A stretch of 64,000 nt of DNA from Candidatus Micrarchaeota archaeon (lineage in GTDB: Archaea > Micrarchaeota > Micrarchaeia > Micrarchaeales > CABMGC01), in the NCBI GenBank assembly GCA_028867025.1, contig JAGWHC010000001.1:574595-638594 (forward strand). Direction: 5' to 3'. Position numbers and translations under genes: made by a program. Positions 1 to 31,096 of this stretch are shown one piece after another. The notes beneath the pieces are model-generated. The model did not search any database. It was not told the origin of the DNA and saw nothing but the letters and a program-made list of their open reading frames with translations. How positions within the stretch are numbered: the first letter of the stretch is position 1; each line of letters begins with the position of its first letter.

Positions 1-387
1 GAGCAGCGCGGAGAACAGCCCGGCCCTGCCGTTGTACAGCTCCCTGCCCATCAGATACACCGCGACCATGGTCACCAGGTAGGAAACCAGCGACCACGCA
101 CCTGCGCCAAGGTTAGTATAGCCGAAGATGCCTATGAAGATGGCCAGCGGGAAGTCAGCCATCAGCCTTATCGAGAATATGTTTATCGACTCGCCGAAGG
201 TTCCGCCGAGTATGCTGGGCACGTACTGCAAGTATGCCGCATCGTCGCCGTAGAAGCTCGGACCCTTGATCAGCAGCAGCGAGAGCACGAGCCCGAATGC
301 GAGTATGGCTATGAGGTACTGCGCTTCCCTCTCAGATAGGTAGCGCACCGCCCGTGTCCAGATCCCTTTTCCTATTCTCTCTCGCAT
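1..387 (-). CDS. GT-C fold membrane glycosyltransferase, PMT_2/ArnT-like (N-terminal 129 aa only; gene runs off the left edge)
   Basis: Not in the ORF track because it is truncated. Reverse complement from ATG at 387-385 reads MRERIGKGIWTRAVRYLSEREAQYLIAILAFGLVLSLLLIKGPSFYGDDAAYLQYV...MGRELYNGRAGLFSALL. TM1, a GDDAAY loop motif and LY-G..G..SALL follow the same layout as the paralogs at 4249, 11756 and 13461. Confidence 0.6.
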   Translation of the reverse strand, partial: MRERIGKGIWTRAVRYLSEREAQYLIAILAFGLVLSLLLIKGPSFYGDDAAYLQYVPSILGGTFGESINIFSIRLMADFPLAIFIGIFGYTNLGAGAWSLVSYLVTMVAVYLMGRELYNGRAGLFSALL

Positions 388-427
388 CGCATTTCCCGCA
401 GGTGTCACGTCACTTTTGGCCATTCAC

Positions 428-2254
428 CTATTTATACAACGGAGTGCCGTTCTTGTAGCTGAGGATTTTGTATATGCTGAAGGTATAGTTCCAGCCGAAA
501 GTGTCATAGGGCGCGCTGACCACGGGGCTCATCGTGAAGTTATCCAGTATCTTTGTGCAGCCCGGAGTCGTGTTGTCCAGTTTGTAGCCGCCCGTGTTGA
601 CGATGCAGTCCAGGCTGTATTCGAAGTACAGGCAGCCGTGCGAGAGGTTCAGCAGCTCGCTCCTGTAAAAAGGCGTGAATATCCAGTCTGCGTACATGTT
701 GCTCACGTTCAGCACGTTCCACAGCGGCGGCTCATAGCTGAGCACGAAGCAGCCGTTTGGTATGAGCGTGTAGTTGCCGAGTATTACATGCTCCTGGAAG
801 CGCTCCGCTGAGAACGGATATATGTCCTGCGGCTGTTTCGCGACGAAGGTCGAGAACTCGAACACCAGGTCGGAGACCATGATTATTATAAGCGCAACCG
901 CCACAGCAGCCGCAAATAGTTTCCTTGATTTCGCGGCCCGTTTTCTCCCCATCTTCCTTTTCCTTCTGGCCTTCGCCACTTTCCAGCGCGCAGCTGAGAC
1001 AAGGCCCGCTATGCCGCCCGCAGCCAGCATGGACACAGCGGGGAACGACACCATGAAATACCTTATGTCGTCCCCGGCTCCGTAGAGCGCCTCCCCGCCG
1101 TAGTAAGATGTGTAGAAGATGAAAACCAGAAAGAACCAGAAGAGGAGCAAGACCGCTTCCGTCCTGTGTTTGCCGCGAAACATGAAGATCGCGCCAAGCG
1201 CTGCGAAAAGCGTGTAGGTCAGCGGGAACTCCAGGTTGTAGCTCTGCCAGCCAGAGGGCGTGATTATGCTCCCGTATCCGCCGAGCCAGAAGACAACGTT
1301 CTCAGCCACGTTCATCCAAAAGTTGTATAGCGAAATCCTTGCTACCCACGGCGCCGCCCCGAAGGTATTCAGGCTCCAGCTGTTGTATATGAAGATCAGT
1401 TGCGGGATGATGAGGATGGCCAGGACAGCCGCGAGCAGCGCATGCATCTTCAGCTCCTTCTTCCCCTTGCCCGAGATGCTCTTCCAGTCGACAGCGACGA
1501 GCAGGGCGAGAGCCACAGGCAGTACAAGTATCGCATCAACCTTCATGGTCAGCGTGTATGCCAGCGCAAGGCACGCCGCCACTCCAGGCAACACCCGTCT
1601 CTCCTTCAGATACGTGAGTAAGAGCGCGATCGCGAGCAGGAACACTGTCAGCTCCGGGGTGTCGATTATCAGCGACCTGGAAAACGTGAGGAAGAGCGGG
1701 GTGAAGCCGAAGAGCGCGGTTGCAAGAAGCGCGACGTCTCCGTCCTTGAGCAGCATGAAGGCGATGTAGAACATAAGCAGTATCGAGATGGAGGACAGCA
1801 GCAGGACGAGATTGTAGCCCGGGGCGAAGCCCACGCCGAACGCGAGGAAGGCGGCGCTCAGCATGGTCGCCCATCCGGTCGGCTGCTGCAGCAGGCCCGC
1901 GGTGTTGCTGACGCAGTGCGGTCCAATGGAAAAGCTGCATATGCCTGCGTAGTGATCATAGACGATTGTCTTCGCAATGCTCATGTGTATGTACTCATCG
2001 TTGAACAGCTGCTGCGTCGGCTGCACGAATGCGAGCTCCAAAACGAGGAAGGCAACGACGATCAACGCCAGCATGGCCAGACGCTTCTTTCCTGCGTATG
2101 AGGCGTTCTTCGCCACGTACCTGAAGGCGAACACAGTACCAACGATCATCGCCGCGAGCAGCGCAATGTCGTAGTAGAAGTAAAAATACTCTCCGCTGGT
2201 CCACTCAAAGTAGCTGAGTATGCTGCCTATCGCTTGAAGCATTAAGTAGCTCAC
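428..2254 (-). CDS. Polytopic membrane protein, probable GT-C fold glycosyltransferase (more divergent PMT/ArnT-like)
   Basis: 608 aa with many TM segments. Has an acidic first-loop motif (FNDEYIH) and a C-terminal soluble domain with N-x-S/T sequons. Stop/start overlap with the upstream surface-protein gene. Confidence 0.5.
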   Translation of the reverse strand: MSYLMLQAIGSILSYFEWTSGEYFYFYYDIALLAAMIVGTVFAFRYVAKNASYAGKKRLAMLALIVVAFLVLELAFVQPTQQLFNDEYIHMSIAKTIVYDHYAGICSFSIGPHCVSNTAGLLQQPTGWATMLSAAFLAFGVGFAPGYNLVLLLSSISILLMFYIAFMLLKDGDVALLATALFGFTPLFLTFSRSLIIDTPELTVFLLAIALLLTYLKERRVLPGVAACLALAYTLTMKVDAILVLPVALALLVAVDWKSISGKGKKELKMHALLAAVLAILIIPQLIFIYNSWSLNTFGAAPWVARISLYNFWMNVAENVVFWLGGYGSIITPSGWQSYNLEFPLTYTLFAALGAIFMFRGKHRTEAVLLLFWFFLVFIFYTSYYGGEALYGAGDDIRYFMVSFPAVSMLAAGGIAGLVSAARWKVAKARRKRKMGRKRAAKSRKLFAAAVAVALIIIMVSDLVFEFSTFVAKQPQDIYPFSAERFQEHVILGNYTLIPNGCFVLSYEPPLWNVLNVSNMYADWIFTPFYRSELLNLSHGCLYFEYSLDCIVNTGGYKLDNTTPGCTKILDNFTMSPVVSAPYDTFGWNYTFSIYKILSYKNGTPLYK

Positions 2255-4170
2255 TTACTTCGCCCTCTACCGCGCAGGCGTGCACCGCGCGCCTCGTGCC
2301 CGCGCCCGAACCTCAGGAATATGTAGGCGTACACGGCAACAAGCGCAAGGCTCAGCGCCGCCAGCTCGTAGAGAGGGTTTATGCTGCCGCTCAACGCGCT
2401 GGAGACAAGCGAGGCGCAGGTGTCGCGCGAGCTGTATATGAATGCGAACTGCCTTATCGCGGTGATGTTGGCCTGACCGCACACCGAAACGTTGTAAACC
2501 TCTATGCCCTCTGAGAACGGTGTGCCTGATGAAGAGAAAACCGAGAAATCGCTGCTGTACCCATTCCCTATGTTGAGATTGTAGAAGCCGACTCCAGACG
2601 CATCGCTTATGTTCACCCCGAAATCCCTCACGCCCGAAGGCTGCAGTGTGAGATTTCTGAAGGTCACTCCCTGCGAGTTCTCTACACTTATCCCGTTTCC
2701 CTCAACCTTGCAATCGCTTATGCCTATGTTGCTCGAATTCATCACATCGATGCCCACCACGGTGTCGTTTATGGTCCCGCCGTTGCAGTTTATGTTTATG
2801 TTGCTGCCTCTCACCACGACCCCAACGCTGCACGGCCTTTGGACCAGCTGGGGAGTTGCGGGCGCGGCTATGGGCAGCAGCGTGCCGCCAGCCATGTCAT
2901 ATGTCCCGCTCCTGTACACCATGATGGCTGACATAGGTATGGAAAGGTTGTACGCCAGCGCGCAGTAACCGAGCCCGAAGCTGAACGACGGAGTCGTTGA
3001 GTCCTGTACGAACGAGCCGAGACCAGGGATGTAGCCCTGCGCGGTCATTATGGACGAGTTTATTCCAAGGGCTACCGAAGCGGTGTAATTGATGAAATAG
3101 AAGCCGGTGCCGTTCGCGGTGTAGTTCGGAGCGGTGCCCGGGTGCGCGAACGCCTTGTAAAGTATTGAATGGCTGCCCACGCCTCCCGATACTGGGTTTG
3201 TGCTGAATTCGGAGGGGTCGTACCTGTACAGGTAGTCGGTAAAGTTCCAGTTGCCGTCCTGCGGCGGCACAGCGACTACATATCTTATCTGTATGGCGCT
3301 GGTGAAGTTGTCCGGCAGTATCTGGAAGTTGAACGGCGGGTATATCGGCTGTATGTACATCGGCGTGAGGTTCACGTTCCTGGTTATGTTCAGCGTGTAC
3401 ATGACCAACTGATCGTAGGCAAGGAACGAGTAATCGATCTGGTACGGGTTGTATCGCACAACGCCGTTCTTGGAGAGCGTGTAATCGGAGACCGGGAAAA
3501 CCCTGTAGCCCTTTATCTGTCCGTAGCTTACGGCAGAGTAGTTGGTCTCTATGTCGCTCTGGGTGATGTTGTATGCGCCCATCGGCACGCTTTCGGCTAT
3601 GAATGAGAAATTGTTAGTGAAGCGGCTGTCGAAGAACTCGCTCATCTGCAGCTCCGTGTTGTTGTACCTGAAAGTGTGATTGAAAAGCGGGAATATGTAG
3701 GAGAAGCCAGCCGCCCTGGGCCCGAAGGCCGACGTGTTGTAGCCGAAAGGCATGAAGACGTTGACACGGAGATAATGCATGACAGTTACGTTGGAGGTGT
3801 TGTCTGCGAACGCTGGCGAGAACGCCGGATTGTCGTCCCCCATTATGTAGAGGCTGGAGTGCGGCGCAAGAGCTATGCTCGGATTGTTTACTGTGCAGTT
3901 GCGCAAGTACACTGACCTGTCGTTGGAGTTAACGGTGATTGATGACCCGCTGCCAATAGCTGCGCCTTTGCAGTTTACGCCGCTGTTGGACACGCTGGGC
4001 GAGAAAGCCACACTGACACTGCTGCAGGAATTGCCGGTCAGGTTGTAGGTCTGATTGCTTGCGCTCAACGTCACGGTGCAGGTCTGCGATGCAGATGCGG
4101 TACCCACTCTAAACATAATTGTCAGGAAAAAGAGCGACAGCACCAGAAGATGCATCTTTTGTAAATACAT
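2251..4170 (-). CDS. Secreted, heavily sequon-decorated beta-helix surface protein with C-terminal TM anchor (S-layer/surface glycoprotein candidate)
   Basis: ORF runs to 4245, but MYLQKMHLLVLSLFFLTIMFRVGTASA (Met at 4170 or 4155) looks like the signal peptide. Parallel beta-helix type repeats are present (NININCNGGTINDTVVGIDVMNSSNIGISDCKVEGNGISVENSQGVTFRNLTL). About two dozen N-x-S/T sites by hand count. C-terminal TM plus Arg-rich tail (LALVAVYAYIFLRFGRGHEARGARLRGRGRSK). Confidence 0.6.
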   Translation of the reverse strand: MYLQKMHLLVLSLFFLTIMFRVGTASASQTCTVTLSASNQTYNLTGNSCSSVSVAFSPSVSNSGVNCKGAAIGSGSSITVNSNDRSVYLRNCTVNNPSIALAPHSSLYIMGDDNPAFSPAFADNTSNVTVMHYLRVNVFMPFGYNTSAFGPRAAGFSYIFPLFNHTFRYNNTELQMSEFFDSRFTNNFSFIAESVPMGAYNITQSDIETNYSAVSYGQIKGYRVFPVSDYTLSKNGVVRYNPYQIDYSFLAYDQLVMYTLNITRNVNLTPMYIQPIYPPFNFQILPDNFTSAIQIRYVVAVPPQDGNWNFTDYLYRYDPSEFSTNPVSGGVGSHSILYKAFAHPGTAPNYTANGTGFYFINYTASVALGINSSIMTAQGYIPGLGSFVQDSTTPSFSFGLGYCALAYNLSIPMSAIMVYRSGTYDMAGGTLLPIAAPATPQLVQRPCSVGVVVRGSNININCNGGTINDTVVGIDVMNSSNIGISDCKVEGNGISVENSQGVTFRNLTLQPSGVRDFGVNISDASGVGFYNLNIGNGYSSDFSVFSSSGTPFSEGIEVYNVSVCGQANITAIRQFAFIYSSRDTCASLVSSALSGSINPLYELAALSLALVAVYAYIFLRFGRGHEARGARLRGRGRSK

Positions 4171-4248
4171 ACCGGAATTTAATCTGTTCTCATCTTTAAA
4201 TCTCTTTGCGCTCAAACTTGTTTTGTTTAAGGAAAGCGCGCGCAAGCG

Positions 4249-5862
4249 ATGCGAATGGCAGCCGCCAGAAAACCACCGGTCAAAAGAGTCAATGGCGTCC
4301 CTCCCAACAAGCGGACCGGAGGGCCGAGCGGCAGGAATAGGGTTTCAGGCAGGCCGGCCTTCGGGCCAGATGCCAAGAGAACCGTGTGCTACGCAGCGCT
4401 GCTTGCAGTGCTCCTCTTCGCTGCGTGGTACTCTCTAAGCCACATCAACGCCCCCTCAAACCTTGACGACGACACAGCCTACATGCAGTACGGCCTGGCT
4501 TTGGCACACGGCACATTCATGGAGAACGCAAATCCGACGCTTATCCTGAGGTCGCTGATGATTGCCCCGATAGGCGTGATCTACGCCCTGTTCGGATTCT
4601 CGCAGTTCACAAGCGCGCTTTGGAGCATACTGTGCTTTCTGGGCTCAATACTTCTAGCCTTCTTCATAGGCAAGCTGCTTTACGGCGAGTACGTGGGCGT
4701 CGTGTCTGCGCTGCTTCTGAGCTTCATGCCCACAGTCTCCGTGCTTGCGACCACTGTAGACGAGATGGTGCCTTTCGTTTTCGTGTCGTCGCTCTCCATG
4801 CTGTGCCTGATCCTTGGGATGAAAACCGGCAAGGCAAAATTCTATTTCTGCTCCGGGCTCGCTGCATTCGCCTCGTTCCTGGTCTCTCCTCTTGGCGCGA
4901 TAACAGCACTGCTTGTGCTTGTGTACTTGGCATTTAACCTGCTGAAGAAGAAAGAGCCTTCAAGAAGCGCGATGGCATTCACCGTTCTCGGGCTCGCATG
5001 TGGCGTACTGCTGGCCGCGGGCTTCAACGTCTACAGCCACGCAAGCCCGCTTATAGAGTTCACAAGCACGTACAGCTTCTACTCAAGCGAAAACGTCGCG
5101 GCGCTGGTCATACTTGACCCCATCTACTACCTTTCGAACATGTTCCCGCTGAACCTGCAGGCAAGCGCTTCTCCAGGGCCGCAGGTTCTCTACTACTATC
5201 TGCTGATACCTGCCGCCTTTTACCTGGTGATCAGGGAGAGGAAAAAGTCAGGAGTGTTGCTGTACTGGTTCGCATTCGCGCTCTCCTACTTGGCAATCGG
5301 GCCGATGCACCTGAGTTTCAACCCGTTCATGTATTACACAATACCAGAGCTGTGGAGATATCTGGACTCGGTGGCAATGCCGCTTGTGCTGATAGTCGCC
5401 GCTGGCATCGTCGGAATCGCCGGCGATGCGTACAGCCTGCTGGGCAGGCCTCTCTTCGCGGCTGTCGCTCTTGTGTCCATAGCGCTGGTGGGCTATGTCC
5501 TATCCCAATCATTCGCGTCGACAATCTGGCTCTACAACGCAAGCATGGCAGGCCTATCCGGGGACAGGCAGGTGGCTGCGTACCTGAGCACGCTTCCGTT
5601 TAGCGCAAACATCTATCTTCCGAGTTCGTCCCCATATGTGTTCACTTTCATACAGCTCTCTAACATGAGCAGAACTGATAACATAACGCTAATCGTTTCT
5701 CCGCCCAACTGCACGAGCGTGCCAAAGCGGGCATACGTGTACCTGCCATACGAGTGGTACAATTCATCCGCAACCGGGCAGCCAGCGCAACGTTACTGCG
5801 GTTGGGACCCAGCCATGTATCTTGAAAACTACGGGACTGTCTATTACACAGGCAGCACCTGA
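4249..5862 (+). CDS. GT-C fold membrane glycosyltransferase, PMT_2/ArnT-like
   Basis: 537 aa, polytopic. After TM1 the loop motif is LDDDTAYMQYG, then LLYGEYVGVVSALLLSFMP. Clear paralog of the genes at 1..387, 11756 and 13461. Confidence 0.65.
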   Translation: MRMAAARKPPVKRVNGVPPNKRTGGPSGRNRVSGRPAFGPDAKRTVCYAALLAVLLFAAWYSLSHINAPSNLDDDTAYMQYGLALAHGTFMENANPTLILRSLMIAPIGVIYALFGFSQFTSALWSILCFLGSILLAFFIGKLLYGEYVGVVSALLLSFMPTVSVLATTVDEMVPFVFVSSLSMLCLILGMKTGKAKFYFCSGLAAFASFLVSPLGAITALLVLVYLAFNLLKKKEPSRSAMAFTVLGLACGVLLAAGFNVYSHASPLIEFTSTYSFYSSENVAALVILDPIYYLSNMFPLNLQASASPGPQVLYYYLLIPAAFYLVIRERKKSGVLLYWFAFALSYLAIGPMHLSFNPFMYYTIPELWRYLDSVAMPLVLIVAAGIVGIAGDAYSLLGRPLFAAVALVSIALVGYVLSQSFASTIWLYNASMAGLSGDRQVAAYLSTLPFSANIYLPSSSPYVFTFIQLSNMSRTDNITLIVSPPNCTSVPKRAYVYLPYEWYNSSATGQPAQRYCGWDPAMYLENYGTVYYTGST

Positions 5863-5989
5863 TGGTGCGGCTCTCAGACCTACAAGTTTTCCGAATTCTT
5901 GAAATTTGACTATTGACGTAGCCGTATTTCACATGGTGTCAAAGTGTCGTCGGAAAGAACGCTTTCAAAACGCTCTAATTAATACATAT

Positions 5990-5999
5990 CTTTATATAC
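5990..5999 (+). promoter_or_regulatory. Archaeal TATA box (CTTTATATAC) for the 6036 gene
   Basis: TTTATATAC lies about 40 nt upstream of the ATG. The same 9-mer precedes the other pilin-signal gene, at 38375. Confidence 0.45.
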
Positions 6000-6035
6000 A
6001 TTCTTACAGCAACTCTACATTAGAGCTGTGCTTGA

Positions 6036-9074: not shown

Positions 9075-9101
9075 CCGCGCAGCAAAGCAATAGAGGATTA
9101 T

Positions 9102-9770
9102 ATGCATACTAGAAAGAAGCATAAAGCATCTACGCTGCCGACACTGTCCGCGCTGATTGCTTTCGGCCTAATAGCGCTCTATTTCACATATTTTTCCAGT
9201 AATGTTTCAGCCGCATCCTATCTTCCCACACTTAACGAGCTCAACAGCGTTTTCGGAAGCGGTTCTTACGAAACGTACGTTGTGCCGCACTGCATGAATT
9301 CAACCTTATTGTACAACACCAGCAGGGTAAATGACGTATGCTCCGTCATCTTTATACAGAGCACTAACAACAGTCGGGTGCCATATGAGATATCAGGAGT
9401 CTCCTACTCCTTCGCCACTCCCTCTGCAGCTGACGCCTACATAGCCAACGTCATACCCCACTTCAATTCGTCCCCCTGGCCTGGCGGTTCAAATACATCT
9501 AGCGAAGCAATACCTAACTTCAACTCGACTCCATGGTCTCAGGGTCCAAAGACATTTGGCAACCTGACCCCCAGCAGCGCGACTCTCTACTACACTTCGG
9601 TGAACTACGGCCTCGGCACGTACTACAATACAGTAATCACAATGTACGTCCTTTCAGGATCAAGAGTTCTTTCAGTCTCAGGGATCATGAGCTATGCGCA
9701 GAACATGACCAGAGCGCGCGCCGCTGTAGCAGAGCTTCTCCACATCCAGTACCTTAAAGCAACGCAGTAG
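9102..9770 (+). CDS. Secreted/anchored sequon-rich protein of unknown function
   Basis: 222 aa. N-terminal basic region plus hydrophobic helix (TLPTLSALIAFGLIALYFTYF). Several N-x-S/T sites. C-terminal ...LHIQYLKATQ resembles the end of the next gene. Confidence 0.5.
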   Translation: MHTRKKHKASTLPTLSALIAFGLIALYFTYFSSNVSAASYLPTLNELNSVFGSGSYETYVVPHCMNSTLLYNTSRVNDVCSVIFIQSTNNSRVPYEISGVSYSFATPSAADAYIANVIPHFNSSPWPGGSNTSSEAIPNFNSTPWSQGPKTFGNLTPSSATLYYTSVNYGLGTYYNTVITMYVLSGSRVLSVSGIMSYAQNMTRARAAVAELLHIQYLKATQ

Positions 9771-9883
9771 CCGCGCGAAGCTTTAACAATGCTACACTCA
9801 TACCGATGCGGCGTGCACGTAGTAATGCTTTTTAAATGTAGCTGCATATTATTGGCGAGGCTTATCTTCAACACGCTGATTAA

Positions 9884-10618
9884 ATGGTCTCCAGTGTCTC
9901 TAATCCGGATGTTCGAGCTACTCCGACAGCCGGCAAGAAAGGCGGCGGAATACGCTATGTTATCAGTGGCCTGATTGTACTCCTAGTCATCGGCGTTATA
10001 AGCTTCTTTGCGATATCTTCCTATACTCCACCCCAACCTACGACAACAGCCTCAACTACCATCAAGGCTACCACAACGGCTCCGCCCCCACTTCCGTTCA
10101 CATTCAACAGTATACTGCTGGCGTCCAACGCGTTATATGGGTTTCCGCAGCAGCCGCAGTTCACTGACTATTACTTCAACTTCACCAATGCCGGCTGGGC
10201 CCATTCCCAGTACGCGGTGAATTTCACCTACCCGCTGTTTACCAACAACTTCACGCCTCCTGCAAACTATACTGTAAGCGTGCCCGCGCGGTACTCCAAC
10301 CTCACCTCTCCCTTCGCTTCAATAATTAGCGTGTGGGCTTATGCCACAGCAAGCTCTGCGGCGCAGAATTTCCCAGCTGTTGGTTCAACAATGTGTCGCA
10401 ACCTGAACGCTACCGGCTCGATGCGCACGGTCACTTCTGCAATAGGCTCGGTAACCACCTATTGCAGCGGTACTTTGTACGGCAGTAGCACCGAGGGCGT
10501 GCTCTTCAACCAAGGAAACGTTTCTGCTGAGGTCATCTTCTTCGGCGTGCTGCAGAAGCTCAACCCCTCATACCTGAATACCACAGCAAGGCACCTCTAT
10601 CTGAAGCTAACGCAGTAA
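9884..10618 (+). CDS. Membrane-anchored protein with Thr/Pro-rich stalk, unknown function (distant paralog of 9102)
   Basis: 244 aa. TM (YVISGLIVLLVIGVISFFAI) followed by PPQPTTTASTTIKATTTAPPP. Sequon-rich. Ends ...RHLYLKLTQ. Confidence 0.5.
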   Translation: MVSSVSNPDVRATPTAGKKGGGIRYVISGLIVLLVIGVISFFAISSYTPPQPTTTASTTIKATTTAPPPLPFTFNSILLASNALYGFPQQPQFTDYYFNFTNAGWAHSQYAVNFTYPLFTNNFTPPANYTVSVPARYSNLTSPFASIISVWAYATASSAAQNFPAVGSTMCRNLNATGSMRTVTSAIGSVTTYCSGTLYGSSTEGVLFNQGNVSAEVIFFGVLQKLNPSYLNTTARHLYLKLTQ

Positions 10619-10644
10619 AAGGCATCGGGCTGAAGGCCAGAGAA

Positions 10645-11706
10645 TCAAAACAATGCCGTTATCTCCCTGTATCTGAAATCCTTTGGCCTATTTCCTATGA
10701 TCAGTATCTCGCGCCCGCATTTTTTACAGGCAAGGTCCTCGCCCAAGTTCCATTTTCTTATGTAGAAACCGTCCCTCTCTATCACCAGCTCGCCGCAGTT
10801 CGGACAGTAGGTGTTCCCGTAGGGGTTCCCCGGCACATTGCCTATGTACACGTAATTTAGCCCATTCTTCCTGGCGATGTCGTAGTGCTTCTTCAGCGTC
10901 TCGTAAGGCGTTTCGGGGTAGTTGAGCATCTTGTAGTCAGGGTGGAAGCGAGTGAACTGGATAGGTGTCTCCGGACCAAGGCTGTCTGCGACCCATTTCG
11001 TAAGCTCGTTGCAGGCTTCAATCGAATCGCCAACCCCAGGTATTATGAGGTCGGTCAGCTCGAGATGTATACCAACTTTCTTCAGTTCGAGCATCGCCTC
11101 CTTTACTGGTTCATTAGAGACCACTGCCTCGTACTTGTTAACGAATTTCGTTTCTCCGCTGCCCTTGAAATCCACAACCACCGCGTCTATAAGGCCCTTC
11201 ATGGCCTGCACTGCCTCCTTGGTCATGTAGCCATTTGTCACCCAGACATTCTTCAGCCCATTTTCATGCGCCAACCTGGCCACATCGAGTGCGTACTCTA
11301 TGAATATGGTGGGCTCGTTGTACGTGTAGGCTATGCTCTGCGTATTGTTCTCCAGCGCCATCTCCACCGCCCTCTTTGGACTTATGTATACGCCCTTCAC
11401 CTCGCGCTCCTTGCTTATGTTGTGGTTCTGGCAGAAGAGGCAGCCCCAGTTGCAGGAGCTGGTCCCAATTCCAAAGACGTAGGTGCCTGGCATGAAATGA
11501 TTGAAAGGCTTCTTCTCTATCGGGTCTATTTGAATGGCCTCTACAAGGCCGTAGTTCATCAGATATAACTTGCCGCCTATGTTCTGCCTGACAAAACAGA
11601 ATCCATGGGATCCCTCTGGTATCTTGCAGAGCCTAGCGCAGGCGTGGCACTCAATCCTTCTGTCCCGCAACCGACTGTAGAGGCCAGCCTCGCTCTTCAT
11701 AAACAT
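10645..11706 (-). CDS. amrS: AmmeMemoRadiSam system radical SAM enzyme (PflA-like activase family)
   Basis: 353 aa. N-terminal Cys cluster (CHACARLCKIPEGSHGFCFVRQN) and radical SAM motif CNWGCLFCQN. C-terminal Cys pairs CPNCG...CKKCG. Confidence 0.8.
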   Translation of the reverse strand: MFMKSEAGLYSRLRDRRIECHACARLCKIPEGSHGFCFVRQNIGGKLYLMNYGLVEAIQIDPIEKKPFNHFMPGTYVFGIGTSSCNWGCLFCQNHNISKEREVKGVYISPKRAVEMALENNTQSIAYTYNEPTIFIEYALDVARLAHENGLKNVWVTNGYMTKEAVQAMKGLIDAVVVDFKGSGETKFVNKYEAVVSNEPVKEAMLELKKVGIHLELTDLIIPGVGDSIEACNELTKWVADSLGPETPIQFTRFHPDYKMLNYPETPYETLKKHYDIARKNGLNYVYIGNVPGNPYGNTYCPNCGELVIERDGFYIRKWNLGEDLACKKCGREILIIGNRPKDFRYREITALF

Positions 11707-11755
11707 ATATATGATTTCCAGCTATTTAACACTATTCCCATGTGACGGCGTAAAA

Positions 11756-13330
11756 ATGCCCCAAAACCGCACGAGCAAAGCAAATTCGGCAAAAGTGAAA
11801 TGCAGCTCTGCCCTCTACGCCGTAGCCCTCGTCCTTATCATCCTGCTCGGTGTCTTTCTAGCTTACCTTTTCTACTACGGGCCAAGCACCGCCAATGTGT
11901 CAGACAACTTCCTTTACGCCGACTACGCCCACCAGATATACGTGGGTCATGCCGGGTCGCTTCCCAGTAATGACGTGCTGGCGCAGCAGTACCTGCTTCT
12001 GGCCGGAATTGCCGCATTCTACGCTGCTTTCGGAGTCGCAAGCCCGTTCACAGCTTCCCTTTTCGGAGTGCTGTGCTTTGCGCTTACAATAGCCATCATA
12101 TACAAGATTGGCGCGCTACTCTACGGCAGAGGGGCCGGACTCGTCTCAGCGCTCGTGTACTCATTCAATCCCGTAGCGGTAATAAATGCCTCTTATGTAG
12201 GCGATAACGGTCCAATGGCGCTCTTTGCGTCCGCGTGCGTATTGTTCCTGATTCTCGGAATGCAGGAAAAACGTGTGGCGCGCTCAGGAACGTACTTCCT
12301 GCTTTCTGGATTTTCCGCAATGATAGGCGTTCTTGTTACAGTCCAGTCTGCAGAGATACTGGTGTTCGTAGCGCCATTCGCCCTCTTCTACGCGATTAGG
12401 GAAAAGAGCACCGCTTCGCTTCTTAACATAGGTCTGTTTGCTCTTGGAATTGCCATCGCGGTGGCGTGCACCGCGCTTGTCGAGTTTTCTATCGGCAACC
12501 CACCGCTTCTCGTGTTCAGCCTTAATTACAACGCCTATTCCGCCGGAGCAGGACACACGCCACAAATTGGGAACTATACGCGTTGGCTCTTTCCCGCCAA
12601 CCCAGCATCCCAGCTCAACCCCGCACAGGCTGCCTATAGCAGCGGCATGTCGAGCGGGCTTTACGGCTACGCCGCGCTGCTTGGCGCCGTATACCTATTA
12701 TTCCGCAGGAACTTCCGCTTTTTTGTCCCCGCCTTCTGGTCCGTCTCCACTCTCCTTTACATGGGTTACGGCTCGCTGAGCCTGCTTGACTATGTGCCGA
12801 TAAGCTATTCGCGCGTACGCTTTATGCTGATATTCATACCTGCGCTTGCTCTCATAATAGGGTTCTCGCTCCTGGACATGGCAGAAATCCTAAGGAAAAA
12901 CAGGCTCAAGATTTTAGGCCTTCTACTTCCTGGGCTTATTGTCATTGCGCTTTTCATAAACTCAGCCGGTATAATTCAGTTCGTCGGCCTGTCGCAGTAC
13001 AAACACACGTATCAGTTGTCACAGACAGGCAGCTTCCTGCTAGGTCTGCCTGCAGACGTGCCAGTTTACGGCAACATCGAGCCGCTTGACGTATACGCCC
13101 ACTACAAGCCCAATTTTGTAGAATCGGAATACGACTTCTTCCCGCCTTTTTACTTTGGGTCCAACTGCAGCATGCTTGCTGTCCCGAATGCAAGCGTTGC
13201 AAAAATATGCGGCCTCAGGGAGGCATTCGCCTCTTCCCAGCCTCCGGCCTATCTGGATGCGTACCGCCTGTTCGACAACGACAGCTTCAGGATTTATGAA
13301 AACATCACTGTCTACTACAAGGCCGCGTAA
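11756..13330 (+). CDS. GT-C fold membrane glycosyltransferase, PMT_2/ArnT-like
   Basis: ORF opens at 11711. Met at 11756 (MPQNRTSK) sits about 45 nt after an AACATATATATG TATA-like element. Loop motif VSDNFLYADYA, then LLYGRGAGLVSALVYSFNP. Confidence 0.65.
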   Translation: MPQNRTSKANSAKVKCSSALYAVALVLIILLGVFLAYLFYYGPSTANVSDNFLYADYAHQIYVGHAGSLPSNDVLAQQYLLLAGIAAFYAAFGVASPFTASLFGVLCFALTIAIIYKIGALLYGRGAGLVSALVYSFNPVAVINASYVGDNGPMALFASACVLFLILGMQEKRVARSGTYFLLSGFSAMIGVLVTVQSAEILVFVAPFALFYAIREKSTASLLNIGLFALGIAIAVACTALVEFSIGNPPLLVFSLNYNAYSAGAGHTPQIGNYTRWLFPANPASQLNPAQAAYSSGMSSGLYGYAALLGAVYLLFRRNFRFFVPAFWSVSTLLYMGYGSLSLLDYVPISYSRVRFMLIFIPALALIIGFSLLDMAEILRKNRLKILGLLLPGLIVIALFINSAGIIQFVGLSQYKHTYQLSQTGSFLLGLPADVPVYGNIEPLDVYAHYKPNFVESEYDFFPPFYFGSNCSMLAVPNASVAKICGLREAFASSQPPAYLDAYRLFDNDSFRIYENITVYYKAA

Positions 13331-13460
13331 CTCTACAGCAGAGATTCTACGCATCAAGTATCTTAAAGCCTCTTGTAGAGTGCCGCTTCTTTAATCACGT
13401 ATTTTATATAGATTTTGAGGCATTTAACGATATCCTGGGCTCGCTCTGCAAGATGCGCAC

Positions 13461-15074
13461 ATGAGCCCGGATATCGGGGTTCTGAAGCAGATGCTTGACC
13501 AAAAAACAGAGTATTTGGGCATCTTCCTTATACTGGTGCTTGGAGCTTACCTGAGCCTTGGCTTCTTTTACGGTCCGAGCTGGATAAACGGCTCGGACAA
13601 TTTCGTCTATACTTCAGAAGCGCATGCACTGGCCTACAATCCGCACACGGCCTATTTCGGGGACGAAGACAATGTTAAATTTCTTATATATGCCGGAATC
13701 ATCCCTTTTTACCTTCTGCTTGGCTATGGCCCTCTCTCATCTGCGCTGTTCGGAGTTACGTGTTTCCTTGGAAATGTGCTAACAGTTTACATTCTTGGCA
13801 AAAAACTTTACAGTCCGACTGCAGGAATGGTCGCCGCTTTTCTGTATGCGACCTTGCCATTAGTCATCGCCGAGAGCTCTAACGTCGGTGACGATGTGCC
13901 GGCTACGTTCTTCGTCTCCCTCGCAATACTTTTCGCTGTTCTGGCCATGGAAAACGGGAAACGGCGTAATCTCTATTATGCGCTTGCAGGTTTCCTGTCA
14001 GCCATAAGCTACCTTGCCGTACCCGAGGGCGCCATAGGCGCGCTTTTTGTGCTCTTACTTTTCGGAGTCATTGCAGTCATGACAAGAAAGAAAGAGGCGA
14101 TTAGCGGTCTCTTCTTCGGCACCCTCGGTTCCGTATGCGCATTCACTGTAGTAATACTGATCGGCATTGTGCTGCAGAACCCGCTGGCCGTGATAGTAGC
14201 AGAGAACGCCAACCTCAACGCCTACTCGACGGTTCCTGGCTTCCTTAGCTATCTTGGCTGGATGCTGCCAGTGCAGTTTGTCCAGGCATCTCTCCTGAGT
14301 GGCTACCTTCCGATACCAACGCCCCAAAGCTTCTCATTATTGCTTAACTATGTCAACCGCTATAGCCTGGAATCACTAATCTTTGGATACCTTGGCTTCG
14401 TCTTCTTCTTAAGCGCAATCTACCTTATTGCCAGCAACGAACGCAAATCGCTTGTGCCACTGTTCTGGTTTTCCTTTGTCTTTGCATATCTTGGGCTGGG
14501 CAGCCAAAGCTTAACAAGATACCTTCCTGTTCTGACGGTATCCAGATTCCTTATACTTCTCTGCCCCGCGATTGCGCTTGTCGTAGGCATTGCATTATCC
14601 AAAGCGCTGGAGTTTTCACGAAAAAAGAGACCGGTTGTAAGGTTTGCGATCACCTTCGCGATAATTTATTTCTTAGTTTTGACCCTTTTGAATTCCTACT
14701 TTTCAGTAATGTACATACAGTATTCCCAGTATAATGCCATGGTTCCGTTAATTGAGACGGGCAATTACATCAATTCGCTCAGTCCCAATGCAACAATCAC
14801 AGGCCCCGTAGACATTCCTTGGGACGTGTACACAAACTACACGCATGCGATGGTGCAGGTAGGCTATGCGCGGTTTGAGACGAACTGCAGTGTTGTGCAG
14901 CTATTCCAAATGCAGCCTGGTTATTATTTTGTTGGCATGAACAACAGTACACTTTTGTCCTGCGGCCTTGCTCCTGTATTCACACCTTATCCTGTCAGTT
15001 GGCTAAGAAACTACACTCTTTTCACTTATTGGGGAATGAATTTCTCCAATTTCGCTATTTATAGATACCAGTGA
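13461..15074 (+). CDS. GT-C fold membrane glycosyltransferase, PMT_2/ArnT-like
   Basis: 537 aa. GSDNFVYTSEA loop, then KLYSPTAGMVAAFLYATLP. Polytopic, with a sequon-bearing C-terminal domain. TTTTATATAG lies at about 13403. Confidence 0.65.
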   Translation: MSPDIGVLKQMLDQKTEYLGIFLILVLGAYLSLGFFYGPSWINGSDNFVYTSEAHALAYNPHTAYFGDEDNVKFLIYAGIIPFYLLLGYGPLSSALFGVTCFLGNVLTVYILGKKLYSPTAGMVAAFLYATLPLVIAESSNVGDDVPATFFVSLAILFAVLAMENGKRRNLYYALAGFLSAISYLAVPEGAIGALFVLLLFGVIAVMTRKKEAISGLFFGTLGSVCAFTVVILIGIVLQNPLAVIVAENANLNAYSTVPGFLSYLGWMLPVQFVQASLLSGYLPIPTPQSFSLLLNYVNRYSLESLIFGYLGFVFFLSAIYLIASNERKSLVPLFWFSFVFAYLGLGSQSLTRYLPVLTVSRFLILLCPAIALVVGIALSKALEFSRKKRPVVRFAITFAIIYFLVLTLLNSYFSVMYIQYSQYNAMVPLIETGNYINSLSPNATITGPVDIPWDVYTNYTHAMVQVGYARFETNCSVVQLFQMQPGYYFVGMNNSTLLSCGLAPVFTPYPVSWLRNYTLFTYWGMNFSNFAIYRYQ

Positions 15075-15100
15075 CAAGAGGCGGTTTCGGGACCAAGATT

Positions 15101-15382
15101 TCAGGCTTTGGTTCTGGGACTTGATCTTCCCTTCACCAAAAAGAGCACAACAGCAACGACCATCGCCCATATGATTATGTCTGCTATCAGACCGGCATAG
15201 TCTATAGCCCACGGGCTGTACTGCTGCGTGTTCACCACAAGATACCTTATCCATGTCAAAGGGAAACCGTACCATGTGGCACCAACCAGCCCTCCGCCCG
15301 GCGTGCTGTTGTAGAGGAAAGAAACCAATGTTATTACCACTCCGCCTATCACGGACTCCGCGATAAACTTCTTCTCCATCAT
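15101..15382 (-). CDS. Small membrane protein, unknown function
   Basis: 93 aa with two hydrophobic helices. No recognisable motif. Confidence 0.4.
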   Translation of the reverse strand: MMEKKFIAESVIGGVVITLVSFLYNSTPGGGLVGATWYGFPLTWIRYLVVNTQQYSPWAIDYAGLIADIIIWAMVVAVVLFLVKGRSSPRTKA

Positions 15383-15435
15383 GATCTAGAGTATGAAACG
15401 CTAATTTAAAAAGGTTGTTCGGGATGAGATACGCT

Positions 15436-16116
15436 ATGAAAGCAGTGATACTGGCCGGGGGCTACGGCAAGCGCTTGATGCCGCTTACCAATACGCTTCC
15501 GAAACCGCTTCTCGATGTGGCAGGCAAGCCAATAATAGACTGGCAGATGACCTGGCTCAGGCGTGCTGGGATAGCGTCGTTCGTGGTAGCTTGCGGCTAC
15601 CTGAAGGAGAAGATAATGGAGCACGTGACCGCGCTTGAAAGAGAGCTCGACGTTAGCGTTGAATACGCCATTGAAAAGATGCCGCTCGGAACCGGTGGGG
15701 CGCTGAAGAACGCTAGGAAACTTGTGGATGACGGGATATTCATGGCGCTTAACGGTGACGTGATAACGAACCTCGACGTCAAGAAGCTGAACCTCAGAGG
15801 GGCTGTGACTTCGATGGCACTTACGCAACTCAGGAGCCCCTTTGGAATAGTTAGGACAGAAGGCGCAACTATAAGACGGTTTGACGAGAAGCCGTTCATC
15901 AAGAGCTACTGGATAAACGCAGGAGTATACTTGGTTGATCCCAAGATATTCGGCTATCTGCCGAAGAAGGGCGATATAGAACGCACAGCATTCTCCACTC
16001 TTGCGAAACGCGGAATGCTCAGGGGAGTCAAGTATCGCGATGTCTACTGGCACTCCATAGATTCCCTCAAGGATCTGGAAGAAACCGGCAAGGACCTGCA
16101 AAACGGCGCGCTTTAG
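15436..16116 (+). CDS. Sugar-1-phosphate nucleotidyltransferase (NDP-sugar pyrophosphorylase)
   Basis: MKAVILAGGYGKRLMPLTNTLPKPLLDVAGKPII is the classic G-x-G-x-R-L signature. The ORF opens at 15415; Met at 15436 is preferred. Confidence 0.8.
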   Translation: MKAVILAGGYGKRLMPLTNTLPKPLLDVAGKPIIDWQMTWLRRAGIASFVVACGYLKEKIMEHVTALERELDVSVEYAIEKMPLGTGGALKNARKLVDDGIFMALNGDVITNLDVKKLNLRGAVTSMALTQLRSPFGIVRTEGATIRRFDEKPFIKSYWINAGVYLVDPKIFGYLPKKGDIERTAFSTLAKRGMLRGVKYRDVYWHSIDSLKDLEETGKDLQNGAL

Positions 16117-17186: not shown

Positions 17187-17430
17187 AAGGCTTAAATAAA
17201 TTCCTACAAAAATGTAATTCCAATCTATATAAATCGTCTTAATGTCATATATATTAGTACGCGGAATCACAATACTATCTGCGTGGGTGGCCTGAACGTA
17301 AGTGGTGGATACGGCGACAGGTTGTTTTTCCGGTTCTCCGTCCAGGCTTCAAGTAGCCCGTTGCCTTTCGCCACCCATCTATGTTAACTCTGCGGCTCAC
17401 CTCAGGTTTTTGCTAGAGCTTTTTATCTAA

Positions 17431-17501
17431 TGGAGGCACAGGGAGTCGAACCCAGACCTTCACCGTGTAAGGGTGACGTCCTACCGTTAGACAATGCCTC
17501 C
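17431..17501 (-). tRNA. tRNA-Val (anticodon UAC)
   Basis: Hand fold: GGAGGCA/UGCCUCC acceptor; D arm GUCU-AACGGUA-GGAC; anticodon arm UCACC-CUUACAC-GGUGA; T arm CUGGG-UUCGACU-CCCUG (one U-U mismatch). Discriminator A. CCA is not encoded. Confidence 0.85.
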
Positions 17502-31092: not shown

Positions 31093-31096
31093 GCCG

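What the first reader, a model, noticed from the sequence alone, without database searches (positions are those of the whole stretch)
1..16116. Surface-glycosylation island with five GT-C (PMT_2/ArnT-like) paralogs around secreted proteins
Seen in sequence:
- Four clearly paralogous polytopic proteins lie at 1-387 (partial), 4249, 11756 and 13461. They share TM1, a D-[DN]-x-x-Y loop (GDDAAY, DDDTAY, SDNFLY, SDNFVY) and an L-Y-G...G..SAL motif.
- A fifth, more divergent member lies at 428-2254 (FNDEYIH).
- They interleave with at least four secreted or anchored proteins. An NDP-sugar pyrophosphorylase and a tandem Lrp regulator flank them.
- No AglB-type WWDYG motif is visible in any of them.

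Established knowledge: PMT/ArnT-type GT-C enzymes transfer sugars from polyprenyl-phosphate donors on the outer face of the membrane. PMTs O-mannosylate Ser/Thr.

Inference: five paralogs in 15 kb point to a dedicated, multi-step or multi-substrate extracytoplasmic glycosylation system for the co-encoded surface proteins.
Basis: partly seen in the sequence, partly recalled or inferred. Interest (0 to 1): 0.6.

Follow-up and report, generated by a model that had tools for sequence, protein, structure and literature searches.

The report
Surface glycosyltransferase gene cluster in Micrarchaeota
A tiny symbiotic archaeon (Micrarchaeota) carries five related membrane sugar-transferases packed among genes for its own surface proteins, an arrangement kept in related genomes. 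The enzymes belong to a known, already annotated family, and what they glycosylate is still untested.

Summary
All five proteins pass Pfam's PMT_2 threshold. Models of two of them (GTCe, GTCb) match only GT-C glycosyltransferases among solved structures. An invariant Asp lies just after TM1 in the GTCe and GTCb orthologue sets and aligns between them. The window comes from a Candidatus Micrarchaeota MAG, and NCBI already names two of these proteins (GTCb, GTCe) "glycosyltransferase family 39".

The paralogues are old (17-30% identity), and each has its own orthologues elsewhere. Linkage to surface proteins recurs in relatives:
- The 664-aa anchored protein ("sec664") ends in a GTGA overlap with the start of the divergent GT-C (428-2254). 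Three other genomes show the same 4-nt overlap, and a fourth has the homologue within 5 kb.
- The 1012-aa pilin-signal protein plus small anchored proteins sits beside GT-Cs in two relatives, and a truncated Hint-like ORF does in a third.

The neighbours carry 3-4 N-glycosylation sequons per 100 aa, against 0-0.9 for cytoplasmic proteins, or Ser/Thr-rich stalks and repeats.

What is not shown:
- The donor and the acceptor are unknown: Ser/Thr, N-glycans, lipid, or the neighbours acting as subunits rather than substrates.
- The nucleotidyltransferase is only loosely conserved, and the Lrp regulator was not found in any fetched locus.

Verdict: a real, ordinary-family cluster of moderate interest, and a candidate for the unidentified archaeal O-glycosylation enzymes.

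The parts
1..387 (-). GTCa: N-terminal 129 aa of a GT-C/PMT_2 protein; the gene runs off the left end of the window (orthologues are 562-573 aa)
   Evidence: PMT_2 26.4 bits against a cut-off of 26.1. GDDAAY follows TM1. Orthologues lie directly after GTCb in L010 and L013 and after a beta-propeller gene in L011.
428..2254 (-). GTCb: divergent GT-C, 608 aa from the GTG start (604 aa from the ATG at 2242 in the NCBI protein); NDE motif after the second TM
   Evidence: PMT_2 32.7 bits and PMT 26.4 bits, both above cut-off. hhalign to the other paralogues 97.3%. AF2 model pLDDT 62.7, with top Foldseek hits STT3, ArnT, PglB and Pmt4. D82 is invariant in 9 orthologues. The GTG start overlaps the sec664 stop as GTGA.
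2251..4245 (-). sec664: surface protein with a signal-like N-terminus (likely start at 4170 or 4155), 27 N-x-S/T sequons, a C-terminal beta-helix-like region, then a TM anchor and Arg-rich tail
   Evidence: Translation. Sequon density 4.1 per 100 aa. TM-like segments at 33-51 and 628-646. Beta_helix and NosD hits at E 1.3e-3, below cut-off. Orthologues are found upstream of GTCb in L010, L011 and L013 and nearby in L012.
4249..5862 (+). GTCc: GT-C/PMT_2, DDDTAY motif; the identical 535-aa database protein P0014 implies a start at 4255
   Evidence: PMT_2 40.3 bits. P0014 is an exact match. It is transcribed divergently from sec664 across an 80-bp AT-rich spacer.
6036..9074 (+). pil1012: 1012-aa surface protein with a class-III-signal-like N-terminus, Ig-like and InlB-B-repeat domains, TNAxT low-complexity repeats, Cys-rich inserts and a C-terminal Hint-like module (8673-9071)
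   Evidence: Translation. Flg_new_2 39 bits passes; Big_1 31.4 bits is below cut-off; three Hint families hit at E 1e-3 to 0.03. Tandem repeats. S+T 28% but only 4 sequons. Orthologues in L002 and L010, and a truncated Hint-like ORF at the end of the L011 contig.
9102..9770 (+). sm222: small protein with one N-terminal TM and 9 sequons
   Evidence: Orthologue in L002/L003 at E 1e-50.
9884..10618 (+). sm244: small protein with one N-terminal TM, a Thr/Pro-rich stalk and 8 sequons
   Evidence: Orthologues in L002 and L010, and a weak match in L011.
10645..11706 (-). AmmeMemoRadiSam radical SAM enzyme; probably a passenger, though it is adjacent to a GT-C in L002 as well
   Evidence: TIGR04337 350 bits against a cut-off of 220. 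L002 orthologue 74% identical, lying between two GT-Cs.
11711..13330 (+). GTCd: GT-C/PMT_2, SDNFLY motif; the identical 524-aa database protein P0012 implies a start at 11756
   Evidence: PMT_2 34.5 bits. P0012 is an exact match. Orthologues at 36-44% identity.
13461..15074 (+). GTCe: GT-C/PMT_2, SDNFVY motif, about 100-aa sequon-rich C-terminal domain
   Evidence: PMT_2 34.4 bits. AF2 pLDDT 73.7, pTM 0.78. All 25 Foldseek hits with E<=1e-3 are GT-C enzymes; ArnT TM-score 0.56/0.56. Identical to an NCBI protein named 'glycosyltransferase family 39 protein'.
15101..15382 (-).
   Evidence: Translation. Its N-terminal 60 residues align without gaps to the 101-aa gene beside the nucleotidyltransferase in L002 (by eye; no alignment run). 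No Pfam hit.
15415..16116 (+). Sugar-1-phosphate nucleotidylyltransferase; likely start at 15436 (MKAVILAGG)
   Evidence: NTP_transferase E 3.6e-31. No NCBIfam equivalog reaches its cut-off, so the sugar is unassigned.
16113..17270 (-). Tandem Lrp/AsnC-type regulator with two HTH_AsnC domains; a link to the cluster is not supported by synteny
   Evidence: HTH_AsnC-type E 4.8e-17 in 2 stretches. No convincing counterpart in any fetched locus; the only hit, a partial ORF in L007 at E 1.7e-5, has a radical-SAM-like N-terminus.

Best explanation
The cluster encodes five anciently diverged GT-C glycosyltransferases of the PMT_2 family in a Micrarchaeota (DPANN) archaeon.

Proposed mechanism:
- Each enzyme sits in the cytoplasmic membrane with a basic N-terminus inside.
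- An invariant Asp in the first outside loop and a small, sequon-rich C-terminal domain face outwards.
- Each takes a single sugar from a polyprenyl (dolichyl) phosphate-sugar that has been flipped to the outer face.
- It adds that sugar to cell-surface glycoproteins encoded next to it.

The cluster is made of two modules that recur in relatives:
- (i) sec664 -> GTCb -> GTCa, with GTCc beside it here. sec664 and GTCb are translationally coupled.
- (ii) The pilin-signal/Hint-like protein plus small anchored proteins, next to GTCd and GTCe.

I favour different paralogues serving different acceptors or linkages. That would be direct O-glycosylation of the Ser/Thr-rich stalks and repeats, decoration of N-glycans already on the sequon-rich proteins, or both.

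Shown: family, fold, conserved Asp, inferred topology, and conserved gene linkage. Inferred: donor, acceptor, and the division of labour.
For: Family and fold:
- PMT_2 is above cut-off for all five proteins.
- The only strong Foldseek matches are GT-C enzymes, for both GTCe and GTCb.
- D46 is invariant in 12 sequences and D82 in 9; hhalign aligns them to each other.

Topology:
- Of the 29 sequons in the four full-length enzymes, 23 lie in the roughly 100 residues after the last TM segment. The rest are in the membrane part, four of them in GTCd.

Neighbouring proteins:
- They carry 3.3-4.1 sequons per 100 aa, against 0-0.9 in cytoplasmic proteins of the same window.
- pil1012 is 28% Ser+Thr. 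Its repeat region keeps that composition but not its sequence in the L002 orthologue, which has SSTSV repeats instead of TNAxT.

Conserved linkage:
- A 4-nt overlap joins the sec664 stop to the GTCb start in the window and in the gene calls of L010, L011 and L013.
- A sec664 homologue and three further GT-Cs lie within 9 kb of GTCb in L012.
- The pil/sm genes lie beside GT-Cs in L002/L003 and L010, and Hint-like plus small anchored ORFs do in L011.
- A small anchored, sequon-rich protein lies next to GTCb in L015/L016.

Literature:
- A Micrarchaeota S-layer protein is glycosylated (bioRxiv 10.1101/2021.04.28.441871).
- An archaeal enzyme reported as distantly PMT-related, AglS, adds Dol-P-mannose-derived mannose to a protein-bound N-glycan outside the cell (PMC3871713, PMC4973528).
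Against: - No donor-synthesis gene (GT2 Dol-P-sugar synthase) and no flippase was found in the window. They appear only in relatives (L002, L012).
- More distant orthologues of GTCd and GTCe stand alone among housekeeping genes (L001, L004, L006-L008), so linkage is not universal for the family.
- Secreted proteins may simply be common in these small genomes.
- Translational coupling of a presumably abundant surface protein to an enzyme is as compatible with a subunit relationship as with an enzyme-substrate one.
- Nothing here distinguishes O-linked from N-glycan or lipid acceptors.
Confidence: 0.55

Rival explanations
1. Glycan-elongation series. The five GT-Cs do not touch protein side chains. 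They add successive or branching sugars from Dol-P-sugars to a lipid-linked oligosaccharide, or to N-glycans already on proteins. This would resemble ALG3/9/12/6/8/10 in the ER lumen or AglS in Haloferax, and would serve all N-glycoproteins of the cell.
For: - The ALG12 and ALG9 structures are among the good whole-length matches (TM 0.54/0.59).
- The tightest neighbour, sec664, and the small proteins are extremely sequon-rich.
- Relatives place a GT2, an epimerase and a MOP-type flippase in the same clusters (L002, L012), as in three-component glycan-modification systems (PMC11127046).
- AglS is a precedent (PMC3871713).
- Five old paralogues fit five different linkages.
Against: - pil1012, a recurrent neighbour, has only 4 sequons in 1012 aa but 28% Ser+Thr.
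- GTCb also passes the PMT (protein O-mannosyltransferase) model.
- A general pathway would not need conserved 4-nt coupling to one particular surface protein.
Confidence: 0.25
2. Lipid or polysaccharide glycocalyx synthesis. The GT-Cs build or decorate a membrane-anchored lipoglycan or exopolysaccharide, comparable to ArnT acting on a lipid or the mycobacterial GT-Cs acting on lipomannan and arabinan. The neighbouring proteins would be unrelated surface components.
For: - ArnT is the best equal-length structural match (537 vs 537 aa, TM 0.56/0.56).
- EmbB/C and AftA also appear among the matches.
- From my own knowledge, characterised prokaryotic PMT_2 members often act on lipids or glycans.
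- sec664 has a beta-helix/NosD-like (carbohydrate-binding type) region.
Against: - Linkage to the same surface-protein families persists across five or more genomes despite rearrangements.
- There is no Wzy/Wzz-type or polymerase gene in the window.
- Lipid A does not exist in archaea.
Confidence: 0.12
3. The neighbours are partners, not substrates. sec664, and the beta-propeller protein inserted in L011 and L012, would be membrane-anchored accessory subunits supplying the acceptor-binding lectin domain that GTCb and GTCa lack. They would play the role of the MIR domain of PMTs, the TPR of TMTCs or the CBMs of EmbC and AftD.
For: - The GTGA translational coupling is conserved in four genomes.
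- sec664 has a C-terminal TM anchor and a beta-helix-like domain.
- GTCb has only about 140 extracytoplasmic C-terminal residues.
- A secreted beta-propeller sits between GTCb and GTCa in L011 and next to them in L012.
Against: - No complex prediction could be run.
- sec664 is itself among the most sequon-dense proteins (4-5.6 per 100 aa), as expected of a substrate.
- In L012 the pair is not adjacent.
Confidence: 0.08

Closest known systems
ArnT (GT83, 4-amino-arabinose:lipid A transferase; PDB 5EZM/5F15)
   Same: Both match Pfam PMT_2. Both have the GT-C fold at nearly identical length (TM-score 0.56/0.56). Both have an acidic residue in the first outside loop and use, or are presumed to use, a polyprenyl-phosphate-monosaccharide donor.
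   Different: Identity is only 13-14%. No sequence-level PDB hit was found. No NCBIfam model of any GT-C family reached its cut-off. The ArnT acceptor, lipid A, is absent from archaea.
Protein O-mannosyltransferases (GT39: fungal/animal PMT/POMT, actinobacterial Pmt)
   Same: NCBI names GTCb and GTCe GT39. GTCb passes the PMT model PF02366 (26.4 vs 22.7 bits) and has an N-D-E motif where PMTs have D-E. The neighbours have Ser/Thr-rich regions like PMT substrates.
   Different: There is no MIR domain. The other four paralogues fail PF02366. Structural matches to Pmt1/2/4 are partial (TM 0.25-0.5). O-mannosylation had not been described in archaea as of 2016 (PMC4973528).
AglS of Haloferax volcanii (Dol-P-mannose mannosyltransferase of the N-glycosylation pathway)
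   Same: AglS is an archaeal, outer-face enzyme that transfers mannose from Dol-P-Man onto a glycan already attached to a surface glycoprotein. It has been reported as distantly PMT-related (PMC3871713, PMC4973528).
   Different: As described in PMC3871713, AglS is a single enzyme acting in one N-glycosylation pathway, not five paralogues interleaved with surface-protein genes.
AglB/STT3/PglB oligosaccharyltransferases (GT66)
   Same: These give the best Foldseek E-values (5e-8 to 1e-5), and they share the GT-C core and an EL1 Asp.
   Different: There is no WWDYG-type motif anywhere in the window and no STT3 Pfam hit. The C-terminal domain is about 100 aa rather than several hundred.
ER-lumen ALG3/9/12 and ALG6/8/10 series; bacterial three-component (GT2 + flippase + GT-C) glycan-modification systems
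   Same: Both involve several paralogous GT-Cs, or a GT-C working with a Dol-P/Und-P-sugar synthase and a flippase. ALG12 matches at TM 0.54/0.59. A GT2 and a flippase lie beside GT-Cs in L002 and L012.
   Different: No GT2 or flippase was found in this window, and the acceptor is unknown.

Membership tests
GT-C superfamily (fold) | Polytopic membrane protein with roughly 8-13 TM helices | tested here: met
   8-11 hydrophobic segments per full-length paralogue; helical bundles in the AF2 models.
GT-C superfamily (fold) | Structural similarity to solved GT-C enzymes | tested here: met
   GTCe: all 25 hits with E<=1e-3 are GT-C enzymes (STT3, AglB, PglB, ArnT, ALG12, ALG9, Pmt4). GTCb: 8 hits with E<=1e-3, all GT-C, but the model is of modest quality (pLDDT 62.7). 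GTCa, GTCc and GTCd were not modelled.
GT-C superfamily (fold) | Conserved acidic residue or motif in the first extracytoplasmic loop | tested here: met
   D46 is invariant in A2 and D82 in A3. The motifs are DD, DDD, DN, DN and DE in the five paralogues, and hhalign aligns them to each other.
GT-C superfamily (fold) | Uses a polyprenyl-phosphate-linked sugar donor on the outer face | not testable with these tools
   Inferred from family membership only.
Pfam PMT_2 (PF13231) | Score at or above the gathering cut-off of 26.1 bits | tested here: met
   26.4, 32.7, 40.3, 34.5 and 34.4 bits. The partial protein passes only marginally.
PMT / GT39 protein O-mannosyltransferase | Match to PF02366 at or above 22.7 bits | tested here: inconclusive
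   Only GTCb passes (26.4 bits); the other four have no hit. Among GTCb orthologues the precomputed PF02366 hit is present in 5 of 9.
PMT / GT39 protein O-mannosyltransferase | Luminal MIR (beta-trefoil) domain in loop 5 (eukaryotic members) | tested here: not met
   No MIR hit at E<=0.1 in any paralogue. From my own knowledge, bacterial Pmt also lacks it.
PMT / GT39 protein O-mannosyltransferase | Transfers mannose from Dol-P-Man to Ser/Thr | not testable with these tools
   Only circumstantial evidence: Ser/Thr-rich neighbours.
ArnT / GT83 | Sequence-level match to ArnT models or structures | tested here: not met
   No NCBIfam hit above cut-off and no PDB sequence hit even with a profile. 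The similarity is at fold level only.
AglB/STT3 oligosaccharyltransferase (GT66) | WWDYG catalytic motif and a match to the STT3 family | tested here: not met
   No WW[DE][YWF][GA] in six frames of the window; no STT3 Pfam hit.
Agl23 (TIGR03663) | Score at or above 126 bits | tested here: not met
   Best is GTCb at 12.5 bits, E 0.053.
   Not among the hits at E<=0.1 for any of the five proteins.
AglS-type Dol-P-Man:N-glycan mannosyltransferase | Sequence homology to HVO_1526 | not tested

The most novel reading that the evidence does not exclude
These GT-Cs, above all the sec664-coupled, PMT-model-positive GTCb, are the so far unidentified archaeal protein O-glycosyltransferases. They would put sugars from dolichyl-phosphate donors onto the Ser/Thr-rich stalks and mucin-like repeats of a host-contact surface apparatus in a DPANN symbiont. 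The archaeal O-glycosylation pathway was still described as 'elusive' in 2021 (PMC8241124), and I found no later paper naming the enzymes.
Probability: 0.25. Interest if true: 0.7.

Novelty: new member of a known kind. Interest (0 to 1): 0.4.

Why it matters
Micrarchaeota are tiny symbionts with reduced genomes that live attached to wall-less Thermoplasmatales, so their surface is their interface with the host. Five outer-face glycosyltransferases packed within 16 kb of such a reduced genome, and kept beside the same surface-protein families in relatives, suggests that surface glycans matter for that lifestyle.

The cluster also offers concrete enzyme-plus-candidate-acceptor pairs (sec664/GTCb, and pil1012 with GTCd and GTCe). 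These could be used to test whether archaea use PMT-like GT-Cs for O-glycosylation, a pathway whose enzymes are not known. If instead the enzymes only extend N-glycans, the finding is a routine extension of the AglS paradigm.

Tried and rejected
Searches that led nowhere:
- Fetching the window's own contig to extend leftwards and complete GTCa failed. Four look-ups found no record, and the genome is not among the GTDB representatives hit.
- PDB sequence searches with GTCb, GTCc and the A2 profile gave nothing meaningful.
- A homologue search with the Hint-like domain found nothing.
- The AglS primary paper is not held.
- The metagenome scan with GTCb gave only three contigs of about 2 kb. tblastn found no sec664 or GTCa in their short flanks.
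- sm222 and sm244 are not detectably paralogous.

Readings considered and rejected:
- AglB-type oligosaccharyltransferase: there is no WWDYG motif and no STT3 hit.
- Recent tandem duplication: identities are 17-30%, and each paralogue has its own orthologues (NJ tree without bootstrap).
- Mobile or foreign island: no integrase ORF was seen, GC is 0.49-0.57 against about 0.53 for the window, and the order of the flanking V-ATPase, Dph and aminotransferase genes is shared with L002.
- Radical SAM enzyme as part of the system: it is the AmmeMemoRadiSam enzyme and is probably a passenger, although its adjacency recurs in L002.

Full report
**Source and gene content.** A protein search with the product of 13461-15074 returned an identical NCBI protein. 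It comes from a 658-kb contig of a "Candidatus Micrarchaeota archaeon" MAG and is named "glycosyltransferase family 39 protein". The product of 428-2254 has an equivalent NCBI record. The rest of the window is ordinary archaeal housekeeping: a V-type ATPase operon, ThrRS, two FtsZ genes, DNA ligase and SUF genes. No AglB, no GT2 Dol-P-sugar synthase and no flippase turned up among the ORFs I scanned.

**Checking the observation.** All five candidates exceed the Pfam PMT_2 gathering score of 26.1 bits:

| Label | Coordinates | PMT_2 bits | Note |
|---|---|---|---|
| GTCa | 1-387(-) | 26.4 | partial, N-terminal 129 aa |
| GTCb | 428-2254(-) | 32.7 | also PMT PF02366, 26.4 vs 22.7 |
| GTCc | 4249-5862(+) | 40.3 | |
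| GTCd | 11711-13330(+) | 34.5 | |
| GTCe | 13461-15074(+) | 34.4 | |

- The quoted motifs GDDAAY, DDDTAY, SDNFLY, SDNFVY and FNDEYIH are all present a few residues after a TM helix that follows a basic N-terminus.
- BLAST links d-e (30% identity, E 5e-51), c-e (5e-26), c-d (4e-21) and a-c (32%, 5e-14). GTCb reaches the others only at E 0.007-0.1.
- Profile-profile comparison of nine GTCb orthologues (A3) against the d/e/c alignment (A2) gives 97.3% probability, E 2e-11. It superposes NDEYIH on SDNFVY.
- Database proteins identical to these ORFs but shorter imply starts at 11756 (GTCd), 4255 (GTCc) and 2242 (GTCb).

**Fold.**
- No PDB entry is detectable by sequence, even with a profile.
- An AlphaFold2 model of GTCe (pLDDT 73.7, pTM 0.78) has 25 Foldseek PDB hits at E<=1e-3, and all are GT-C enzymes. 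They include STT3/AglB/PglB (E 5e-8 to 1e-5), ArnT (537 vs 537 residues, TM 0.56/0.56), ALG12 (0.54/0.59), ALG9 and Pmt4.
- The GTCb model is weaker (pLDDT 62.7), but its eight hits at E<=1e-3 are again only GT-C enzymes.
- D46 is invariant across A2 and D82 across A3.
- No WWDYG-like motif exists in any frame of the window.
- Most sequons of the enzymes fall in the roughly 100 residues after the last TM, together with paired cysteines. This fits an outward-facing C-terminal domain.

**Age of the paralogues.**
- A full HMMER search with A2 finds 7479 cluster representatives at E<=1e-3 and 240 at E<=1e-30.
- Each window paralogue has its own closer relatives among them: e at 35-51%, d at 36-44%, c at 30-40%, a at 50%.
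- A neighbour-joining tree, without bootstrap, puts a and c on one major branch and d and e on another.
- The five are therefore old subfamilies, not a recent local expansion.

**The neighbouring proteins.**
- *sec664 (2251-4245).* It has a signal-like N-terminus, 27 sequons, a sub-threshold beta-helix/NosD-like region, a C-terminal TM and an Arg-rich tail.
- *pil1012 (6036-9074).* It begins KKA|QSALEYLLTY, which resembles an archaeal class III (pilin-type) signal; this rests on the motif only. It has a Flg_new_2 domain above cut-off and a Big_1-like domain below cut-off. About 400 residues are TNAxT repeats, with two Cys-rich inserts, and the C-terminal 133 residues give weak hits to three Hint families.
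- *sm222 and sm244.* Each has one N-terminal TM. sm244 follows it with a Thr/Pro-rich stalk.
- *Sequon density.* It is 4.1, 4.1 and 3.3 per 100 aa for sec664, sm222 and sm244, against 0-0.9 for cytoplasmic proteins of the window. pil1012 has 0.4 per 100 aa but is 28% Ser+Thr.

- *L010 (GCA_027364065.1).* The order is sm, sm, pil943, GT-C, DUF1761, sec634, GTCb', GTCa', NMD3, GT-C, SecF, SecD.
- *L011 (GCA_027371795.1).* The order is sec635, GTCb', a secreted beta-propeller, GTCa', three small anchored proteins, then a truncated Hint-like ORF at the end of the contig.
- *L013.* The order is sec633, GTCb', GTCa'.
- *L012.* This is the most distant GTCb orthologue (38%). It has GTCb', two further GT-Cs, the beta-propeller and a sec664 homologue (E 2.5e-107) within 9 kb, plus a GT2 and a MOP-type flippase.
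- *L002/L003.* The order is GT-C, radical SAM, GTCe', sm, sm, pil1003, with a GT2 and an epimerase nearby. This locus lacks sec664, GTCb and GTCa.
- *L015/L016.* A 208-aa anchored, Ser/Thr- and sequon-rich protein lies next to GTCb.
- *Translational coupling.* The sec664 stop and the GTCb start overlap as GTGA in the window. The called genes overlap by the same 4 nt in L010, L011 and L013.
- *Counter-examples.* More distant orthologues of GTCd and GTCe are single genes in unrelated contexts (L001/L005, L004, L006, L007, L008). L009 has a tandem pair.
- *Flanking genes.* No locus has a convincing match to the Lrp regulator. The nucleotidyltransferase is matched only by position in L002, at 27% identity.

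Taken together, the cluster consists of two recurrent modules rather than one fixed island.

**Mechanism.**
- *What family membership implies.* This rests on established knowledge of ArnT, PMT, STT3 and the ALG enzymes. A sugar is taken from a polyprenyl-phosphate carrier on the outer face, with the loop-1 Asp in catalysis.
- *What conserved linkage adds.* The acceptors, or partners, are the co-encoded surface proteins.
- *What I cannot resolve.* Whether sugars go directly onto Ser/Thr or onto N-glycans.
  - Favouring Ser/Thr: GTCb passes the PMT model; pil1012 and the stalks are Ser/Thr-rich and sequon-poor; the repeat composition is conserved but its sequence is not.
  - Favouring N-glycans: the neighbours are extremely sequon-dense; AglS is a precedent (PMC3871713); GT2 and flippase genes occur in relatives.
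- *Also open.* A lipid or polysaccharide acceptor, and a reading in which sec664 is a lectin-like subunit, both remain possible.

**Literature.**
- A Micrarchaeota S-layer protein is glycosylated, and N-glycosylation genes are expressed (bioRxiv 10.1101/2021.04.28.441871).
- My searches found no paper on GT39 or GT-C clusters in DPANN.

**Verdict.** The proteins are new members of a known, already annotated family. The conserved enzyme/surface-protein modules are the new element and make a testable candidate for archaeal O-glycosylation. Interest is moderate (0.4).

Noticed in passing
window 6036-9074 (+), especially 8673-9071: This 1012-aa surface protein combines a pilin-type (class III-like) signal, Ig-like and InlB-B-repeat domains, about 400 aa of TNAxT repeats and a C-terminal Hint-like module. 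The module starts CSFRGGTPIYMANGQIKPIEELQPGEV, which resembles a Hedgehog/intein motif A, and ends in Cys. Three Hint Pfam families hit weakly (E 1e-3 to 0.03). The L002 orthologue keeps Cys1. The L010 and L011 ORFs carry two tandem copies without it, and the block-B His is not conserved, so self-cleavage is uncertain.
   Followed up: partly
window 7417-8638; L002:13124-16135: The repeat region of the 1012-aa protein is built from 12-, 21-, 42- and 45-nt tandem units. In the L002 orthologue it is replaced by SSTSV/SSTSI repeats, while the flanking domains stay about 69% identical. The linker is therefore hypervariable but always Ser/Thr-rich. The 243-aa ORF on the opposite strand (7331-8062) is a shadow of the repeats.
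   Followed up: partly
Its N-terminal 60 residues align without gaps to the 101-aa gene in the same position in L002 (by eye; no alignment run). It has no Pfam family.
   Followed up: partly
window 10645-11706 (-) and 28502-29323 (+): The AmmeMemoRadiSam radical SAM enzyme (TIGR04337, 350 bits) lies inside the GT-C cluster, 17 kb from its usual partner Memo. It is also wedged between two GT-Cs in L002. A different radical SAM protein sits next to the GT-C in L001/L005, and a partial ORF with a similar N-terminus does so in L007.
   Followed up: partly
L002:3316-5328 and L012:3880-5907: A 670-675-aa family with about 13 TM segments, no Pfam hit and a sequon-rich C-terminus sits next to a GT2 in two relatives (E 1.8e-183 between them). 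It may be a further, unrecognised GT-C-like enzyme. It has no match among the window proteins I compared.
   Followed up: no
L010:14637-16304: In the closest syntenic relative, another weak PMT_2 protein (555 aa) follows GTCa and NMD3, ahead of SecDF. A sixth GT-C may therefore lie just left of this window.
   Followed up: no
window 4171-4254: An 80-bp AT-rich divergent spacer separates sec664 and GTCc. It has TTTAAA-type boxes about 25 nt from each start codon, which is consistent with two leaderless archaeal transcripts.
   Followed up: no
window 45460-48723 (+) and 33524-34231 (-): An archaeal helicase carries an intein with a LAGLIDADG endonuclease. A separate free-standing LAGLIDADG ORF lies upstream of a translation-factor-like GTPase.
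   Followed up: no
window 41855-42436 (+): A Peptidase_M23 (lysostaphin-type) domain protein, E 1e-22, occurs in an archaeon, next to sequon-rich secreted proteins at 40660-41754 and 38412-39392 (LamG-like).
   Followed up: no
window 29365-32302 (+): A NodU-like carbamoyltransferase is followed directly by a sulfatase-superfamily protein, which could be glycan-modifying enzymes. A GT4 glycosyltransferase lies at 44097-45149.
   Followed up: no
window 17431-17501 (-): tRNA-Val lies at the right edge of the cluster, between the Lrp regulator and the aminotransferase. I saw no integrase or repeat evidence for a mobile element.
   Followed up: no
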